NCBI RefSeq assembly: GCF_058153355.1
Contig: NZ_CM177019.1
Length of the DNA: 64,000 nt
Reading direction: 5' to 3' (one strand)
The position numbers and the translations under genes are program-made. The notes below the pieces were generated by a model. That model saw only the letters and a list, made by a program, of their open reading frames with translations, was not told the origin of the DNA and did not search any database. Below are positions 13,764-19,552 of the stretch, piece after piece; the first letter of the stretch is position 1; each line of letters starts with the position of its first letter.

Positions 13764-14720
13764 ATGAACCCGATTGCAGTTACCCTACTCACCGGTTTTT
13801 TAGGCGCAGGCAAAACCACCCTGCTGCGCCATATTCTTAATGAACAGCACGGCTACAAAATTGCCGTGATTGAAAACGAATTCGGCGAAGTCTCCGTTGA
13901 TGATCAACTGATTGGCGACCGCGCCACGCAGATCAAAACGCTGACCAACGGCTGCATCTGTTGTTCGCGCTCCAACGAGCTGGAGGACGCGCTACTCGAC
14001 CTGCTGGATAATCTCGACAAGGGCAATATTCAGTTCGACCGTCTGGTCATTGAATGCACAGGCATGGCCGATCCCGGCCCGATTATTCAGACCTTTTTCT
14101 CCCATGAGATTTTATGCCAGCGTTACCTGCTGGACGGCGTGATTGCGCTGGTGGATGCGGTACATGCCGATGAGCAGATGAACCAGTTCACCATCGCCCA
14201 GTCACAGGTTGGCTACGCCGACCGCATTCTGCTGACCAAAACCGACGTCGCAGGCGAAGCAGAAAAACTGCGTGAACGCCTGGCGCGCATCAACGCCCGC
14301 GCACCGGTCTACACCGTCACCCACGGCGACATCGATCTGGGCCTGCTGTTCAACACCAACGGTTTTATGCTGGAAGAAAACGTCGTCAGCACCAAACCGC
14401 GTTTCCACTTTATCGCGGATAAACAAAACGATATTTCGTCGATTGTGGTGGAACTGGATTACCCGGTAGATATCAGCGAAGTTTCTCGGGTGATGGAAAA
14501 CCTGCTGCTGGAATCGGCGGATAAACTGCTGCGTTACAAAGGGATGCTGTGGATTGACGGCGAACCAAATCGCCTGCTGTTCCAGGGCGTCCAGCGCCTC
14601 TACAGCGCCGACTGGGACCGCCCGTGGGGCGATGAAAAACCGCATAGCACAATGGTGTTTATCGGGATTCAGCTGCCGGAGGAAGAGATTCGGGCTGCGT
14701 TTGCGGGGTTGAGGAAGTAA
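13764..14720 (+). CDS. yjiA: CobW/P47K-family GTPase
   Basis: 318 aa from internal Met (GGAGAG RBS); P-loop GFLGAGKTT. Confidence 0.9.
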   Translation: MNPIAVTLLTGFLGAGKTTLLRHILNEQHGYKIAVIENEFGEVSVDDQLIGDRATQIKTLTNGCICCSRSNELEDALLDLLDNLDKGNIQFDRLVIECTGMADPGPIIQTFFSHEILCQRYLLDGVIALVDAVHADEQMNQFTIAQSQVGYADRILLTKTDVAGEAEKLRERLARINARAPVYTVTHGDIDLGLLFNTNGFMLEENVVSTKPRFHFIADKQNDISSIVVELDYPVDISEVSRVMENLLLESADKLLRYKGMLWIDGEPNRLLFQGVQRLYSADWDRPWGDEKPHSTMVFIGIQLPEEEIRAAFAGLRK

Positions 14721-14788
14721 GTTCGGGAAAGATCAACTTTTTGAGAGTTCCACCGCAATATTATTACGAGTGGAACTCTTTAGATATG

Positions 14789-16463
14789 TCAGACCAACCA
14801 AAGCTTCTTCAATTGCGTTTTCATTTTTTCATGTCTCATTTTCAGTTCAGCCAATCCCCATTCTGAAGAATTACAAACATCTTTTGTTAAATCAAAAGAG
14901 CTTTTACTATTAAGTTTCTCATAAATAGATTTCTTTTTGATAAAATCATAGTGTTGTGCTTCAGAATTTTTGGAACCACTTATGAGTGTTAAATTACCTA
15001 TTTTATGCAGCCAGTAGACATGCTCTTGAGGTTGGAATCTATTAATCCAGTATTCATTAACTAATGCTTGAGGAAGAATATGCTCAATTGTGATTCTCCC
15101 CGTATAGGTTTTAATCACGCTCTCATCTTGTTGCTCCATATCTAAGCGAAGCAAAATTGCTTTTATTAAGTTCACTTGATTCGGACGAGGCTCATATAAA
15201 TCTTCATCCAGTGCAGCTATAAAACCTGAATTATCTGCATGTTGGTTTATCTGATTTATCACAGAATCAAAAGGCATATCATTATTTATTGCTACCAGAG
15301 CTGAATAACAAACCATTTCTCTTTGGCTTTTAATTTGTTTTTTTAACCACCCATGCATATATACCTTCTCAAAGGCGGTAATAAATTGAGAAAAATCATC
15401 TAAATTAAAATCTTCTGTACGAGCCATTCGATTCATGAATGCCATAACCGGAGGAATCCACTCATCTACCCCTAAATTACTTAGCGATGCTATTTTTCGT
15501 CGTATTGAAGGGTGTTCAAAATCATTCTCTAAAATCTTAGTATAATTTTTTGCAGAATTAACCAACATCAGTGACATAGCAATAGCATCTCCATCAAATT
15601 GCTGCTGGAGATTTTCAATAAAAGCTTCAAAACCTTTTTGTAACACCCTGTCACGATCTTTTTTCTCGGAAAGCTTATGAAGAGTAAGAAATTTATCAAG
15701 CCGTCTCACTCCAACCATATCTTCAATTTGCGACCATGCTGATTCTATTTGCTCTAATTTTTTATTATGTGTAGAAGCTGATTCAAACAGTGCATTTTTT
15801 AAAAGAACTGCATTACTTAAAGGTAAACCTCGACTATTTAATACATTAAAGAGTCTAAATGATGATGCGAAATCATCTGTTTGCACAAATACGATATATA
15901 CATTTTGCAAAATATATTTAGCAAGCAACTTCAACTCATCAACAGATAACCGCAACAAATAATCTCTAATTGTTTCAGCGTTGCTAATGAATACTAAATC
16001 AGTATCCGATGGCTTTTCAGGCTTATAATCTTTAGAATCCTGCAGTATATAATATTTATAAAGATCATACTCTTTTTTTCTAACAATTAGTCTTGGTTCA
16101 TCTGTTTCATCAGAATAAACATCAATAGGTAGAACTCTTTTTTTGCAAATCATCTTTTATCCCCTGAATCGGGATGATTTTTTTTAGCTCGGAGACAATA
16201 ATACTTAACGTTGTAAGACGTTGTTGCCCATCTACAACTTCATACTGATTTTGCCCTTTATTGATACAAATCATACTCCCAATAAAATATTCATTCTCTT
16301 CTGATTGAGAGCTTTTATAAATGTCATCAATGAGTTGCTCTGCATTATCTACCGTCCAACTGTAAGGACGCTGATAAGAAGGAATAATAAACTTTTTGTT
16401 TTCAGTAAGGATATCCTGCACCTTACATTCTTTAGCTTCCATTTCATATACCCAATCAAACAA
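14789..16463 (-). pseudogene. GmrSD-like type IV restriction endonuclease (DUF262 ParB-like N-domain plus DUF1524 HNH-like C-domain), frameshifted
   Basis: Two overlapping minus-strand ORFs (16463-16122 and 16153-14789). The upstream piece has the DUF262 motif PSYQRPYSW...DGQQR. They are joined only by a 1-nt frame change inside an A7 run (plus-strand T7 at 16138-16144). AT-rich. Confidence 0.7.
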
Positions 16464-16599
16464 TCAACAATAACATTATCTTTCTTGCCCGAAAGAAACG
16501 CAACTATAAGATTTTTATATATTTTGTTAGAGATATTAGTAGCAAAAGGCCACGATAAATTTCTCTCCCCTTCCCCATACGGGAAGGGGAAATACCCCC

Positions 16600-16764
16600 T
16601 CACTCCACATCCTCCCTGCGTAACCCAATATCCCTCAACCGTTCATCACTCATCTGCTGTAACACGCGTCGGGTCTGCATTTGCCGCCGCCAACGCCTCA
16701 CCGCCTGCCAGAGTTGCACCAGGCCGATAAACGGCGCTTTAGCTCTGTTTTCGTGAAATACCAT
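16600..16764 (-). CDS. yjiS: DUF1127-family small protein (YjiS-like)
   Basis: Hand-translated 54-aa ORF MVFHENRAKAPFIGLVQLWQAVRRWRRQMQTRRVLQQMSDERLRDIGLRREDVE with the DUF1127 signature; below the ORF-track length cut-off; divergent from yjiR. Confidence 0.7.
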   Translation of the reverse strand: MVFHENRAKAPFIGLVQLWQAVRRWRRQMQTRRVLQQMSDERLRDIGLRREDVE

Positions 16765-16940
16765 CTGCTGCCTCCTCATCTTTCAGAGGCTTCATCATCC
16801 GCCTTCTGGCAGTTCACAATACAGATGCAAATATTAGTTTTATTTAACATACAGACAGGTTAAAACAACATCTGCATCCGGTTTTTTAGCCTCATCTGTA
16901 CCGGTTTTTCTCTCTGTATGGTCCAAATAAGGAGTACAGC

Positions 16941-18353
16941 ATGACGCGTTATCAACATCTGGCGACTCTGCTTGCCGAACGGATTGAGCAAGGGCTGTAT
17001 CGTCACGGGGAGAAATTGCCGTCGGTGCGCAGCTTAAGTCAGGAGCACGGCGTCAGTATCAGCACCGTGCAGCAGGCGTATCAGACGCTGGAGACGATGA
17101 AGCTCATCACTCCGCAGCCGCGTTCGGGTTATTTTGTCGCACAACGTAAAGCCCAGCCGCCAGTACCGCCGATGACGCGTCCGGTGCAGCGCCCGGTGGA
17201 AATTACCCAGTGGGATCAGGTGCTGGATATGCTGGAGGCGCATAGCGACAGTTCCATTGTTCCGTTAAGCAAAAGCACGCCGGATGTCGAAACGCCCAGC
17301 TTGAAACCGCTGTGGCGGGAGCTAAGCCGGGTGGTGCAGCATAATCTGCAAACCGTTCTCGGTTATGACTTGTTAGCCGGTCAGCGAGTATTGCGAGAGC
17401 AGATTGCCCGCCTGATGCTCGACAGCGGCTCGGTAGTCACCGCCGATGACATCATTATTACCAGCGGCTGCCATAACTCGATGTCGCTGGCGTTAATGGC
17501 GGTGTGTAAACCGGGCGATATTGTCGCGGTCGAATCCCCCTGTTATTACGGTTCGATGCAGATGCTGCGCGGCATGGGCGTGAAAGTGATTGAAATCCCA
17601 ACCGATCCAGAAACAGGCATCAGCGTTGAAGCGCTGGAACTGGCGCTGGAACAGTGGCCAATTAAAGGCATCATTCTGGTGCCAAACTGTAATAATCCGC
17701 TGGGATTTATTATGCCGGACGCGCGCAAACGGGCCGTTCTCTCTCTCGCTCAGCGTCATGATATTGTGATTTTTGAAGATGATGTCTATGGCGAACTGGC
17801 AACGGAGTATCCGCGCCCGCGGACCATTCATTCCTGGGATATCGACGGGCGAGTGCTGCTGTGCAGTTCGTTCAGTAAAAGCATTGCACCAGGCCTGCGC
17901 GTGGGTTGGGTCGCACCGGGGCGTTATCACGATAAACTGCTGCATATGAAATACGCCATCAGCAGCTTTAATGTGCCGTCCACGCAAATGGCGGCGGCAA
18001 CGTTTGTGCTGGAAGGTCACTATCATCGCCATATCCGGCGGATGCGGCAGAATTATCAGCGCAATTTGGCGCTTTATACCTGCTGGATACGGGAATATTT
18101 TCCCTGCGAAATCTGTATTACGCGCCCGAAAGGCGGATTTTTACTGTGGATAGAATTGCCTGAACAGGTCGATATGGTCTGCGTTGCGCGACAGCTGTAC
18201 CGCATGAAAATCCAGGTGGCGGCAGGCTCGATTTTCTCGGCTTCCGGCAAATACCGTAATTGTCTACGCATCAACTGCGCTTTACCGCTCAGCGAAACCT
18301 ATCGCGAAGCACTGAAGCAAATTGGCGAGGCCGTGTATCGGGCAATGGAATGA
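16941..18353 (+). CDS. yjiR: MocR-family regulator (GntR HTH fused to aminotransferase-like domain)
   Basis: 470 aa; N-terminal GntR HTH and class-I aminotransferase-like fold; AAGGAG RBS. Confidence 0.9.
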   Translation: MTRYQHLATLLAERIEQGLYRHGEKLPSVRSLSQEHGVSISTVQQAYQTLETMKLITPQPRSGYFVAQRKAQPPVPPMTRPVQRPVEITQWDQVLDMLEAHSDSSIVPLSKSTPDVETPSLKPLWRELSRVVQHNLQTVLGYDLLAGQRVLREQIARLMLDSGSVVTADDIIITSGCHNSMSLALMAVCKPGDIVAVESPCYYGSMQMLRGMGVKVIEIPTDPETGISVEALELALEQWPIKGIILVPNCNNPLGFIMPDARKRAVLSLAQRHDIVIFEDDVYGELATEYPRPRTIHSWDIDGRVLLCSSFSKSIAPGLRVGWVAPGRYHDKLLHMKYAISSFNVPSTQMAAATFVLEGHYHRHIRRMRQNYQRNLALYTCWIREYFPCEICITRPKGGFLLWIELPEQVDMVCVARQLYRMKIQVAAGSIFSASGKYRNCLRINCALPLSETYREALKQIGEAVYRAME

Positions 18354-18595: not shown

Positions 18596-19552
18596 TTAGT
18601 ACTCGATCCATGGATCACGCTTGCTTTCAGGCAAGGGCTGATCTAATGCCTGCATTTGCTCTGCCGAAAGTCCGGTATATCGTTGTATCCATTCAGGATC
18701 GGCCCCATTCTGCAACAACAATCGGAGGAGGCTCCGTTCCCCTTCTACTTTCCCTTCTTTCCTCCCCCTCTCCCTTCCCAACAGCCATCCATCATTATGA
18801 ATTCGCTCTGCAATTGTCATTATTCGCTCCCTGTGGTGTGGCATTCGCCTGGTAAGTTCGCTGATAAACGCCTTAAAACGCGCTTCATCGCCAGTCAGTA
18901 AAATGTAATTTAACAGCGCAGTTATCTGGCTGTCATTAGCGCACCCTGTAACCAGTAATACTGCCAGTTGATCAATAAGCCCCATTAGATCGCGCTGGCG
19001 AATATGCTTTTGGATCAACTCCAACAGGGCGACTCTGCGATGCTGCACAATCTCGTCATCCGGCACGATAGTGATATCCACCAGCGGGAACGCGGCGTTA
19101 TAAAGCTTCCGTGCGGTAGTCGGGTCGGCAAATTCGTCCAGCCAGCACAAAGACCAGGGATAAGGACTACGGCTACCGTGATAAAACAGCATCGGGATGA
19201 CCAGCGGTAGCGGTCGGCGTTTATCATGTTCGATATGGCGCTGCATCACCGCCATGGAATAGCGCATCAGGCGAAAAGCCATGTGAATATCCTCACGGCT
19301 CTGATGTTCAATCACCACATAGATATAGCCATCTCCTTTACGGGTCTTTACCGACCACAGAATATCGGAATGTAGCGCCCGTAATTTTTCATCGACAAAG
19401 CTGGCGGATTCCAGTTTTAAGCTATCGAGATCGCACAGTTCACGTAAATCTATTGGTAAGTGGATCTCCATAAAATCCCGCGCGGTGTCAGGGTGGGTGA
19501 GAAAGGATTTAAATAATGCGTCATGCGGCGTACTGGTCGTGAAGTTTGTCAT
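18596..19552 (-). CDS. rpnD: Rpn-family recombination-promoting nuclease (PD-(D/E)XK, transposase_31-like), uninterrupted
   Basis: 318 aa; N-terminal HDALFKSFL and core typical of the YhgA/Rpn family; adjacent to mdtM where K-12 has yjiP/yjiQ. Confidence 0.8.

What the first reader, a model, noticed from the sequence alone, without database searches (positions are those of the whole stretch)
16600..16764. Unlisted 54-aa DUF1127 (YjiS-like) gene below the ORF-track cut-off
Hand translation of the minus strand gives MVFHENRAKAPFIGLVQLWQAVRRWRRQMQTRRVLQQMSDERLRDIGLRREDVE. This carries the DUF1127 signature (arginine-rich segment followed by L-x-x-M-S-D-x-x-L-x-D-I-G-L). It lies divergent from yjiR, and overlaps two longer spurious plus-strand ORFs in the track. 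A perfect hairpin ccccttcc/ggaagggg sits just beyond its stop.
Basis: seen in the sequence. Interest (0 to 1): 0.35.

Follow-up and report, generated by a model that had tools for sequence, protein, structure and literature searches.

The report
Known small gene yjiS (DUF1127)
The 54-codon reading frame is real and is the already-known E. coli small-protein gene yjiS, an arginine-rich DUF1127 protein recently shown to bind the phosphate sensor kinase PhoR, so the finding is correct but ordinary.

Summary
Window 16600..16764 (-) encodes exactly the 54-aa protein quoted. It matches Pfam DUF1127 over the full model (50.2 bits; cut-off 23.3). It lies divergent from yjiR and overlaps two longer plus-strand ORFs that show no coding constraint. 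The gene is not new: RefSeq annotates it as yjiS in about 4,100 of 5,426 complete E. coli genomes, and the K-12-lineage protein is 52/54 identical. Across 21 distinct alleles from Escherichia and Citrobacter the frame keeps 54 codons without indels, and pooled pN/pS is 0.22. Published work shows that E. coli YjiS binds PhoR and restrains pstS expression and phosphate uptake. Salmonella YjiS is translated, is peripheral to the inner membrane and co-purifies with SsrA/B. The hairpin (16567..16589) is real but has no U-tract. It is inherited from the yjiS/symE convergent spacer, and 24 nt of the symE 3' end remain beside it. Side observations: symE and the type I R-M genes are deleted here, and the GmrSD-like gene is frameshifted. 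The yjiR-yjiS spacer carries five fixed-position CTGTAT boxes, a candidate YjiR operator, plus a possible SD-sequestering leader. Both are conserved in homologs down to 46% identity. Interest is low.

The parts
16600..16764 (-). yjiS coding sequence, 54 codons plus TGA. It encodes an arginine-rich DUF1127 small protein (11 Arg, pI 11.6, 6.7 kDa).
   Evidence: Translation. Pfam PF06568, 50.2 bits against GA 23.3. Annotated yjiS at the syntenic place in RefSeq E. coli. pN/pS 0.22 with no indels in 21 distinct alleles. Protein properties.
16771..16777 (-). Shine-Dalgarno sequence GAGGAGG, 6 nt upstream of the ATG at 16764.
   Evidence: The sequence itself. The GGAGG core is invariant in Escherichia, Citrobacter and Klebsiella.
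16784..16792 (-). Conserved 5'-UTR block AAGCCTCTG, a candidate anti-SD segment that pairs with the SD in predicted folds.
   Evidence: Invariant across three genera. The minimum-energy fold of 7/7 homologous leaders pairs a CU-rich block with the SD region, z -1.4 to -3.6. This is inferred, not demonstrated.
16819..16939 (.). Cluster of five CTGTAT/ATACAG boxes (16819-24, 16849-54, 16896-901, 16914-19, 16934-39) in the yjiR-yjiS spacer. They are a candidate operator of the MocR-type regulator YjiR.
   Evidence: Five CTGTAY sites in 121 nt against about one per 1.1 kb in the window. P about 2e-4 for such a cluster anywhere in the window. Invariant in alignment A1. Same offsets 5/25/43/90/120 in homologs down to 46% identity. 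Binding was not tested.
16837..16863 (-). Published candidate sigma-70 promoter of yjiS: TTAACC (16858-63), 15 nt, then TAAAAC (16837-42). K-12 has TAAAAG.
   Evidence: Genomic SELEX found an RpoD-holoenzyme site in the yjiR/yjiS spacer and proposed these hexamers (PMC3946193). Coordinates. The local consensus scan did not call it.
16567..16589 (-). Perfect 9-bp G+C-rich hairpin (CCCCTTCCC, loop GTATG, GGGAAGGGG), 10 nt after the yjiS stop codon, with no U-tract on either strand.
   Evidence: It is present only in alleles with a convergent symE (L001, L004, L008, L009), where one arm change keeps a G-U pair. No terminator was called.
16535..16558 (+). Remnant of the last 24 nt of symE (ATTAGTAGCAAAAGGCCACGATAA). 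A deletion junction follows at about 16533/16534.
   Evidence: BLAST of the window segment against L001 and L024/L025. Comparison with the symE 3' end of L001.
16941..18353 (+). yjiR, a divergent MocR-type regulator gene (GntR HTH plus aminotransferase fold, 470 aa). It is the conserved partner of yjiS.
   Evidence: Pfam. The divergent pairing with a 175-180 nt spacer is conserved in Citrobacter, Klebsiella and more distant homologs.

Best explanation
This is the gene yjiS, the single DUF1127 small protein of E. coli, intact and probably expressed in this strain. It encodes a 6.7-kDa, highly basic protein. The structure model gives one long helix (residues 13-37) with a hydrophobic N-terminal part and an Arg-rich part, followed by a short helix-turn-helix around the conserved SDExLxDIGL motif. 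The most likely mode of action is protein-protein regulation at the cytoplasmic face of the inner membrane. YjiS binds the sensor kinase PhoR and biases the PhoR-PhoB system towards the 'off' (phosphatase) state, which restrains pstS expression and phosphate uptake. What is shown here: the gene identity, the family membership and the selection on the frame. What is shown elsewhere, for a 52/54-identical K-12 protein: PhoR binding and the pstS and phosphate-uptake phenotype. What is inferred: that this allele (E2V, K44R relative to K-12) behaves the same way, and the detailed mechanism, which the authors propose as binding to the acidic linker of PhoR. Transcription probably starts in the 176-nt spacer shared with yjiR, which may be controlled by the MocR-type regulator YjiR through five conserved CTGTAT boxes. 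That regulatory link is inferred only.
For: Identity: exact ORF; Pfam DUF1127 full-length hit, 50.2 bits against 23.3; annotated yjiS at the same place next to yjiR in RefSeq E. coli, including a K-12-lineage genome. Selection: 54 codons with no indels in 21 distinct alleles; variable columns by codon position 21/17/43; pooled pN/pS 0.22 against 0.97-2.0 in four of the five other frames. Start site: conserved ATG plus GGAGG. Function: an E. coli yjiS mutant has raised pstS mRNA and faster phosphate uptake; YjiS-PhoR interaction shown by two-hybrid and Far-Western; E. coli YjiS complements the Agrobacterium triple mutant (PMC12501420). Salmonella YjiS is seen by Ribo-seq and western blot, is peripheral to the inner membrane and salt-extractable, and co-purifies with SsrA/B (PMC11707872). 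Structure model: pLDDT 80.9, helices 13-37, 40-45 and 50-53. The highest helical hydrophobic moment is at residues 12-31.
Against: No expression data exist for this strain. The window allele has V2 where all 22 compared relatives have E2. No canonical terminator follows the gene. The PhoR two-hybrid signal was seen in only one fusion orientation. In Salmonella, single Arg or DIGL substitutions did not abolish the infection phenotype, so the family motif is not proven to be the functional surface. The related CcaF1 binds RNA, so the family may have more than one mode of action. yjiS is missing or decayed in about a quarter of complete E. coli genomes, so it is dispensable.
Confidence: 0.8

Rival explanations
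1. YjiS acts more broadly as a membrane-peripheral modulator of several sensor kinases or inner-membrane proteins, and PhoR is only one client. In Salmonella the relevant client is SsrA/B.
For: [quoted passage not shown] Loss of YjiS raises flagellar gene expression (PMC11707872). The protein is highly basic with an amphipathic helix.
Against: E. coli lacks SsrA/B. Only PhoR has been confirmed with purified E. coli proteins. Pull-down partners were not validated individually.
Confidence: 0.25
2. YjiS is an RNA-binding protein like Rhodobacter CcaF1, and affects RNA maturation or stability through its arginine-rich helix.
For: It has the same Pfam domain and 20% arginine. CcaF1 binds RNA and still complements the Agrobacterium phosphate phenotype.
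Against: Salmonella YjiS pull-downs gave no evidence of associated transcripts. Enterobacterial YjiS forms a separate clade. No sRNA cluster lies downstream here, and Rfam returned nothing above threshold.
Confidence: 0.12
3. The ORF is not a functional gene in this strain. It would be a decaying remnant at the edge of a rearranged region, and the conserved signal is historical.
For: The adjacent region has suffered a deletion and a frameshift. Other strains carry decayed yjiS alleles: a stop at codon 5 in L009, a truncated remnant in L005 and an IS insertion at the start in L029. E2V is unique to this allele.
Against: The frame, start codon, SD, leader, all five spacer boxes and yjiR are intact in the window. 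The only other protein difference from K-12 is K44R, which many alleles share.
Confidence: 0.05
4. yjiS is functionally tied to the neighbouring restriction and defence cassette (the immigration control region), for example as a regulator or accessory of it.
For: Its stop codon lies within about 8 nt of the point where E. coli strains diverge into different restriction cassettes.
Against: The yjiR-yjiS pair is conserved in Klebsiella and more distant taxa, where the downstream genes are MarR/RND efflux, ClpP and others. It has no PADLOC match. The literature treats yjiS as a framework gene flanking the cassette.
Confidence: 0.03

Closest known systems
E. coli K-12 YjiS (RefSeq WP_000394280.1, 'DUF1127 domain-containing protein')
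   Same: Same locus, divergent from yjiR with the same spacer. Same length (54 aa), 52/54 residues identical, and the same SD and leader.
   Different: E2V (unique to the window allele) and K44R. The downstream neighbour is a hairpin, a symE remnant and a frameshifted GmrSD-like gene, instead of the yjiT pseudogene.
Salmonella Typhimurium YjiS (PMC11707872)
   Same: A 54-aa DUF1127 protein with 11 arginines and a DIGL motif, from the enterobacterial YjiS clade.
   Different: In Salmonella it is SsrB-dependent and induced under SPI-2 conditions, and it affects macrophage escape and flagella. E. coli has no SsrA/B. The Salmonella sequence was not compared directly here.
Agrobacterium tumefaciens small DUF1127 proteins SDP1-3 (PMC12501420)
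   Same: Same Pfam domain, and PhoR binding with repression of pstS. E. coli YjiS complements the triple mutant.
   Different: Only about 24% sequence similarity according to the paper. The Agrobacterium proteins are shorter and present in several copies per genome, and they have no YjiR partner that I know of.
Rhodobacter sphaeroides CcaF1 (PMC8034643)
   Same: An arginine-rich DUF1127 domain.
   Different: A 71-aa RNA-binding protein co-transcribed with an sRNA cluster. No such RNAs were found next to yjiS here, and no RNA association was found for Salmonella YjiS.
MgrB and SafA (small-protein modulators of the sensor kinase PhoQ)
   Same: They work alike in outline: a small protein binds a histidine kinase and shifts its output (discussed).
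   Different: They are unrelated in sequence. They are integral membrane proteins acting on the periplasmic domain, whereas YjiS is peripheral and cytoplasmic.

Membership tests
Pfam PF06568 (DUF1127 / YjiS-like) | Match to the family HMM above the gathering score | tested here: met
   50.2 bits against 23.3, E 2e-13, model positions 1-37 of 37 on residues 18-54.
Pfam PF06568 (DUF1127 / YjiS-like) | Arginine-rich segment followed by the conserved SD-x-x-L-x-D-I-G-L motif | tested here: met
   11 Arg in 54 residues. L43 is invariant, and L35, D40, D45 and G47 are at least 90% conserved among 27 homologs down to 35% identity.
Pfam PF06568 (DUF1127 / YjiS-like) | Small stand-alone protein (about 40-80 aa) | tested here: met
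   54 aa. Relatives are mostly 50-70 aa.
Enterobacterial yjiS orthologous group | Position divergent from yjiR (a MocR-type regulator) with a spacer of about 176 nt | tested here: met
   Window spacer 16765..16940. The same arrangement is seen in E. coli, Citrobacter, Klebsiella and more distant homologs.
Enterobacterial yjiS orthologous group | Reading frame conserved under purifying selection | tested here: met
   No indels, pN/pS 0.22, and variation concentrated at third codon positions (43 of 81 variable columns).
Enterobacterial yjiS orthologous group | Translated into a stable protein | not testable with these tools
   Shown for Salmonella by Ribo-seq and western blot. Purified E. coli YjiS was used in vitro. 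No data exist for this strain.
PhoR-binding DUF1127 regulators | Direct binding to PhoR and repression of pstS | not testable with these tools
   Reported for K-12 YjiS, which is 52/54 identical. Inferred for this allele.
Intrinsic (Rho-independent) terminator, for the hairpin | G+C-rich stem-loop | tested here: met
   9 perfect pairs, extendable to 11, with a 5-nt loop.
Intrinsic (Rho-independent) terminator, for the hairpin | Run of U immediately 3' of the stem | tested here: not met
   The stem is followed by AGAGAAAUUUAUCG on the yjiS strand and AAAUACCCCC on the other strand. The scan found 0 sites. Citrobacter yjiS, by contrast, has a canonical GGCCGG...CCGGCCTCTTTT terminator.
MocR/GabR-type operator, for the CTGTAT boxes | Several short direct and inverted repeats in the regulator's own divergent promoter region | tested here: met
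   Five boxes at fixed offsets, conserved to 46% protein identity.
MocR/GabR-type operator, for the CTGTAT boxes | Bound by the cognate regulator (YjiR) | not testable with these tools
   No published YjiR operator was found.

The most novel reading that the evidence does not exclude
yjiR and yjiS form an ancient two-gene module. The PLP-dependent MocR-type regulator YjiR would sense an unknown amino compound and, through five fixed-position CTGTAT boxes, control transcription of yjiS. Translation of yjiS would be further gated by an SD-sequestering leader. This would connect an amino-compound signal to PhoR and phosphate signalling through a 54-aa protein. No paper in the searchable library describes a YjiR operator or links YjiR to yjiS. 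Curated regulon databases such as RegPrecise could not be checked.
Probability: 0.35. Interest if true: 0.4.

Novelty: already known. Interest (0 to 1): 0.1.

Why it matters
As a gene call it matters little, because yjiS is annotated and has been characterised. The case does show that a 60-aa ORF cut-off hides real and physiologically relevant small proteins. The by-products are more useful. One is a precise, testable candidate operator for the uncharacterised regulator YjiR. Another is a candidate translational control element for yjiS. If confirmed, they would say when the cell makes this PhoR modulator, which the two 2025 papers leave open for E. coli.

Tried and rejected
- **NCBIfam:** no model matches the protein.
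- **Rfam, permissive thresholds, 16000..17200:** only sub-threshold matches to archaeal snoRNA and RAGATH models (16-21 bits against gathering scores of 45-54), which I treat as noise.
- **Promoter and terminator scan:** no terminator. The only promoter-like site is downstream of the gene and unrelated to it.
- **PADLOC:** no defence-system model matches YjiS, and I rejected a defence role.
- **Solved structures:** no sequence relative in the PDB (best E 0.43) and no Foldseek match for the model.
- **Covariation in the SD-sequestering stem:** among close relatives the stem is invariant, with 0 compensatory pairs. With distant relatives added, the automatic alignment shifts and the counts are ambiguous. 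Only the individual folds support the stem.
- **The 59-aa start at 16779:** rejected, because that ATG is not conserved outside Escherichia and it overlaps the SD.
- **The two plus-strand ORFs:** rejected as genes. Within the overlap their frames give pN/pS 2.0 and 0.97, and other alleles carry extra stops. The 141-aa ORF also runs across the deletion junction between unrelated segments.
- **Hairpin as a dispersed repeat:** rejected, because it occurs only once in the window.
- **Literature searches for MocR with DUF1127, yjiS or YjiR:** no operator or regulon description was found.

Full report
**1. Observation**

The mechanical ORF list reports the same frame as 59 aa, because it starts at an upstream ATG at 16779.

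The ATG at 16764 is the real start. It is preceded by GAGGAGG (16771..16777) at a 6-nt spacing. It is conserved in all relatives, with GTG in one. The ATG at 16779 overlaps the SD and is absent in Citrobacter and Klebsiella.

The other parts of the observation also hold:
- yjiR (16941..18353, +) is divergent from the gene.
- Plus-strand ORFs of 141 aa (16305..16730) and 60 aa (16681..16863) overlap it.
- The hairpin is at 16567..16589: CCCCTTCCC, a 5-nt loop, then GGGAAGGGG. It occurs once in the window, with none expected in shuffles. The surrounding 81 nt fold at -34.6 kcal/mol, z = -3.6.

**2. Is it a gene?**

Pfam DUF1127 (PF06568) matches residues 18-54 over the whole 37-position model. 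The score is 50.2 bits against a gathering score of 23.3, E = 2e-13.

I compared 23 sequences from E. coli, E. whittamii, other Escherichia and eight Citrobacter genomes. They comprise 21 distinct nucleotide alleles. All have 54 codons and no indels. Variable columns fall 21/17/43 on codon positions 1/2/3. In the C-terminal motif (residues 35-54) the split is 6/1/17.

Pooled pN/pS is 0.22 in the yjiS frame. Four of the five other frames give 0.97-2.0. The fifth, an antisense frame, gives 0.31 but has at least one stop in every allele. The frames of the two overlapping plus-strand ORFs give 2.0 and 0.97, so they show no coding constraint. The 141-aa ORF also runs across a junction between unrelated DNA segments.

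**3. It is already known**

A BLAST of the coding sequence against 5,426 complete RefSeq E. coli genomes finds it in 4,159 of them. It is annotated 'yjiS: DUF1127 domain-containing protein'. A K-12-lineage genome has it next to yjiR and the yjiT pseudogene. Its protein differs from the window's at two residues, E2V and K44R.

The literature defines the E. coli 'immigration control region' as the variable segment between yjiS and yjiA (PMC3874165 and PMC2481252).

Two 2025 papers address function:
- **PMC12501420 (E. coli).** An E. coli yjiS mutant has raised pstS mRNA and faster phosphate uptake. YjiS binds PhoR in a two-hybrid assay (one fusion orientation only) and in Far-Western blots with purified proteins. 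E. coli YjiS complements an Agrobacterium triple DUF1127 mutant.
- **PMC11707872 (Salmonella).** YjiS translation is shown by Ribo-seq and western blot under SPI-2 conditions. The protein associates with the inner membrane in a salt-extractable way. It co-purifies with inner-membrane proteins including SsrA, and it delays escape from macrophages.

**4. Anatomy and likely mechanism**

The protein has 11 Arg in 54 residues, a pI of 11.6 and a mass of 6.7 kDa. An AlphaFold2 model built on a 27-sequence alignment has mean pLDDT 80.9. It shows a disordered N-terminus, one long helix (residues 13-37), and short helices at 40-45 and 50-53 flanking DIGL. The helical hydrophobic moment peaks over residues 12-31. 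That fits the amphipathic-helix membrane association proposed for the Salmonella protein. No solved structure resembles it by sequence or by fold.

My best-supported mechanism is that of the K-12 protein: a peripheral, basic small protein that binds PhoR and keeps the Pho regulon down. The authors propose that it binds the acidic linker between the membrane helix and the PAS domain, so that PhoU can switch PhoR to its phosphatase state.

The evidence has three levels:
- **Shown here:** identity, family membership and selection on the frame.
- **Shown elsewhere:** PhoR binding and the phosphate phenotype.
- **Inferred:** that this allele behaves the same way, and the structural details.

I put the gene identity at about 0.97 and the PhoR mechanism at about 0.55. 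The main rivals are a broader kinase or membrane-protein clientele and RNA binding as in CcaF1. Neither is exclusive of the PhoR mechanism.

**5. The hairpin**

The hairpin is not followed by a U-run on either strand, and the terminator scan calls nothing. Among E. coli alleles, sequence similarity ends within about 8 nt of the yjiS stop codon. After that point the strains diverge into at least five unrelated downstream cassettes.

The hairpin occurs only in the cassette where symE converges on yjiS. There it sits in the 42-nt gap between the two stop codons. About 920 genomes share this arrangement. One allele has a C-to-T change in the stem that preserves a G-U pair.

The window keeps the hairpin and the last 24 nt of symE (16535..16558). 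At about 16533/16534 it then jumps to sequence that, in E. coli C and O157:H7 TR01, lies upstream of a GmrSD-like gene next to yjiA.

So the hairpin is an inherited piece of the yjiS/symE convergent spacer. It may stabilise or define 3' ends, but it fails the U-tract criterion for an intrinsic terminator. Citrobacter yjiS, in contrast, has a canonical terminator.

**6. Regulation (new, but inferred)**

YjiR carries GntR and aminotransferase domains, so it is MocR-type. It is uncharacterised, and the library holds no described operator for it.

The divergent yjiR-yjiS pair, with a spacer of 175-180 nt, is conserved in Citrobacter, in Klebsiella and in homologs down to 46% protein identity, while the other neighbours change.

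The spacer carries five CTGTAT/ATACAG boxes at window 16934-39, 16914-19, 16896-901, 16849-54 and 16819-24. Such a cluster is expected anywhere in the window with P of about 2e-4. The boxes are invariant across three genera. They sit at identical offsets (5, 25, 43, 90, 120) in the distant homologs, with slight degeneracy. Repeats of this kind are typical of MocR/GabR operators; that comparison rests on my own knowledge of the family.

Genomic SELEX placed an RpoD-holoenzyme site in this spacer and proposed TTAACC-15-TAAAAG as the yjiS promoter (PMC3946193). In the window these hexamers are at 16858-63 and 16837-42. Box 4 falls inside that promoter and box 5 falls just downstream of it.

A conserved leader block AAGCCTCTG (16784..16792) pairs with the SD in the minimum-energy fold of all seven leaders tested. 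Two of these have different sequences on both sides: GGCUCU/AGGAGCC and GCUCUUUUC/GAGGAGAGC. Z-scores are modest, -1.4 to -3.6, and formal covariation counts are ambiguous. I regard both the operator and the SD-sequestering stem as hypotheses worth testing, not as findings.

**7. Source and context**

The first 25 kb of the window is at most 98.4% identical to any complete RefSeq E. coli genome. No genome in that set has the symE-remnant/GmrSD junction, because the best coverage of a query spanning it was 83%. The window therefore comes from an E. coli or Shigella-level lineage that is not represented at this locus.

Synonymous divergence of yjiS within E. coli reaches 0.39. From my own knowledge, that is far above typical E. 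coli core-gene divergence. It fits the gene's position at the edge of the recombination-prone restriction region.

**8. Verdict**

The novelty class is 'already known', and interest is low at 0.1. The only part with some novelty value is the candidate YjiR operator and leader structure.

Noticed in passing
window 16533..16558 and the flanking sequence 14700..16610: There is a deletion junction here. The last 24 nt of symE (16535..16558) are fused at about 16533/16534 to DNA that in E. coli C and O157:H7 TR01 lies upstream of a GmrSD-like gene. The window therefore lacks symE and the whole type I R-M (hsd) block between yjiS and yjiA. None of 5,426 complete RefSeq E. coli genomes shows this junction.
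   Followed up: yes
window 14789..16442 (-), insertion at 16144: The GmrSD-like (DUF262/DUF1524) type IV restriction gene next to yjiA is split into 113-aa and 454-aa ORFs by a 1-nt A insertion, relative to the intact 550-aa gene of E. coli ATCC 8739 (99.3% identical otherwise). It is probably a pseudogene. The intact protein matches PADLOC Orf5/HEC-06 models.
   Followed up: yes
window 16819..16939: Five CTGTAT/ATACAG boxes sit at fixed positions in the yjiR-yjiS spacer. They are conserved from Escherichia to homologs with only 46% YjiS identity and are a candidate operator of the uncharacterised MocR-type regulator YjiR.
   Followed up: partly
window 16771..16792 (-): The conserved CU-rich leader block AAGCCTCTG is predicted to pair with the yjiS Shine-Dalgarno sequence in 7 of 7 homologous leaders, which suggests possible translational control. 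Covariation evidence is ambiguous.
   Followed up: partly
window 16759..16761 (codon 2 of yjiS): The window allele has Val (GTA) at position 2, where all 22 compared relatives have Glu (GAA). The effect is unknown. From general knowledge, it could change N-terminal methionine removal.
   Followed up: no
L009 1501..1665; L005 3001..3093; L029 1763..3243: Three decayed yjiS alleles in other E. coli all coincide with damage to the yjiR side. L009 has a stop at codon 5 with a frameshifted, truncated yjiR. L005 has a 3' remnant of yjiS with yjiR deleted. L029 has an IS (rve transposase) inserted between yjiR and yjiS that replaces the yjiS start. This hints that the two genes are lost together.
   Followed up: partly
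yjiS alleles in L001-L015 compared with the window: Synonymous divergence of yjiS within E. coli reaches 0.3-0.4, and nucleotide identity across genomes ranges from 80 to 99%. This is unusually high for one species and fits the gene's place at the border of the recombination-prone immigration control region.
   Followed up: partly
L011 (JAIJJM010000552.1, 'Collinsella sp.' MAG) and L012 (JAEWTL010000091.1, 'Bacillota bacterium' MAG): Contigs binned into Gram-positive MAGs carry an E. coli-type yjiS (93% identical protein) with E. coli-type downstream sequence. This is most likely binning contamination.
   Followed up: no
proteins P0135, P0137, P0144, P0146 and others: The representative search found proteins of about 150-300 aa with two to four tandem stretches matching the DUF1127 query. 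This multi-repeat architecture contrasts with the usual single-domain small proteins.
   Followed up: no
window 18596..19552 (-): The Rpn-family (YhgA-like, PF04754) recombination-promoting nuclease gene beyond yjiR is intact here at 318 aa. The K-12-lineage genome annotates its counterpart as a pseudogene with an internal stop.
   Followed up: no
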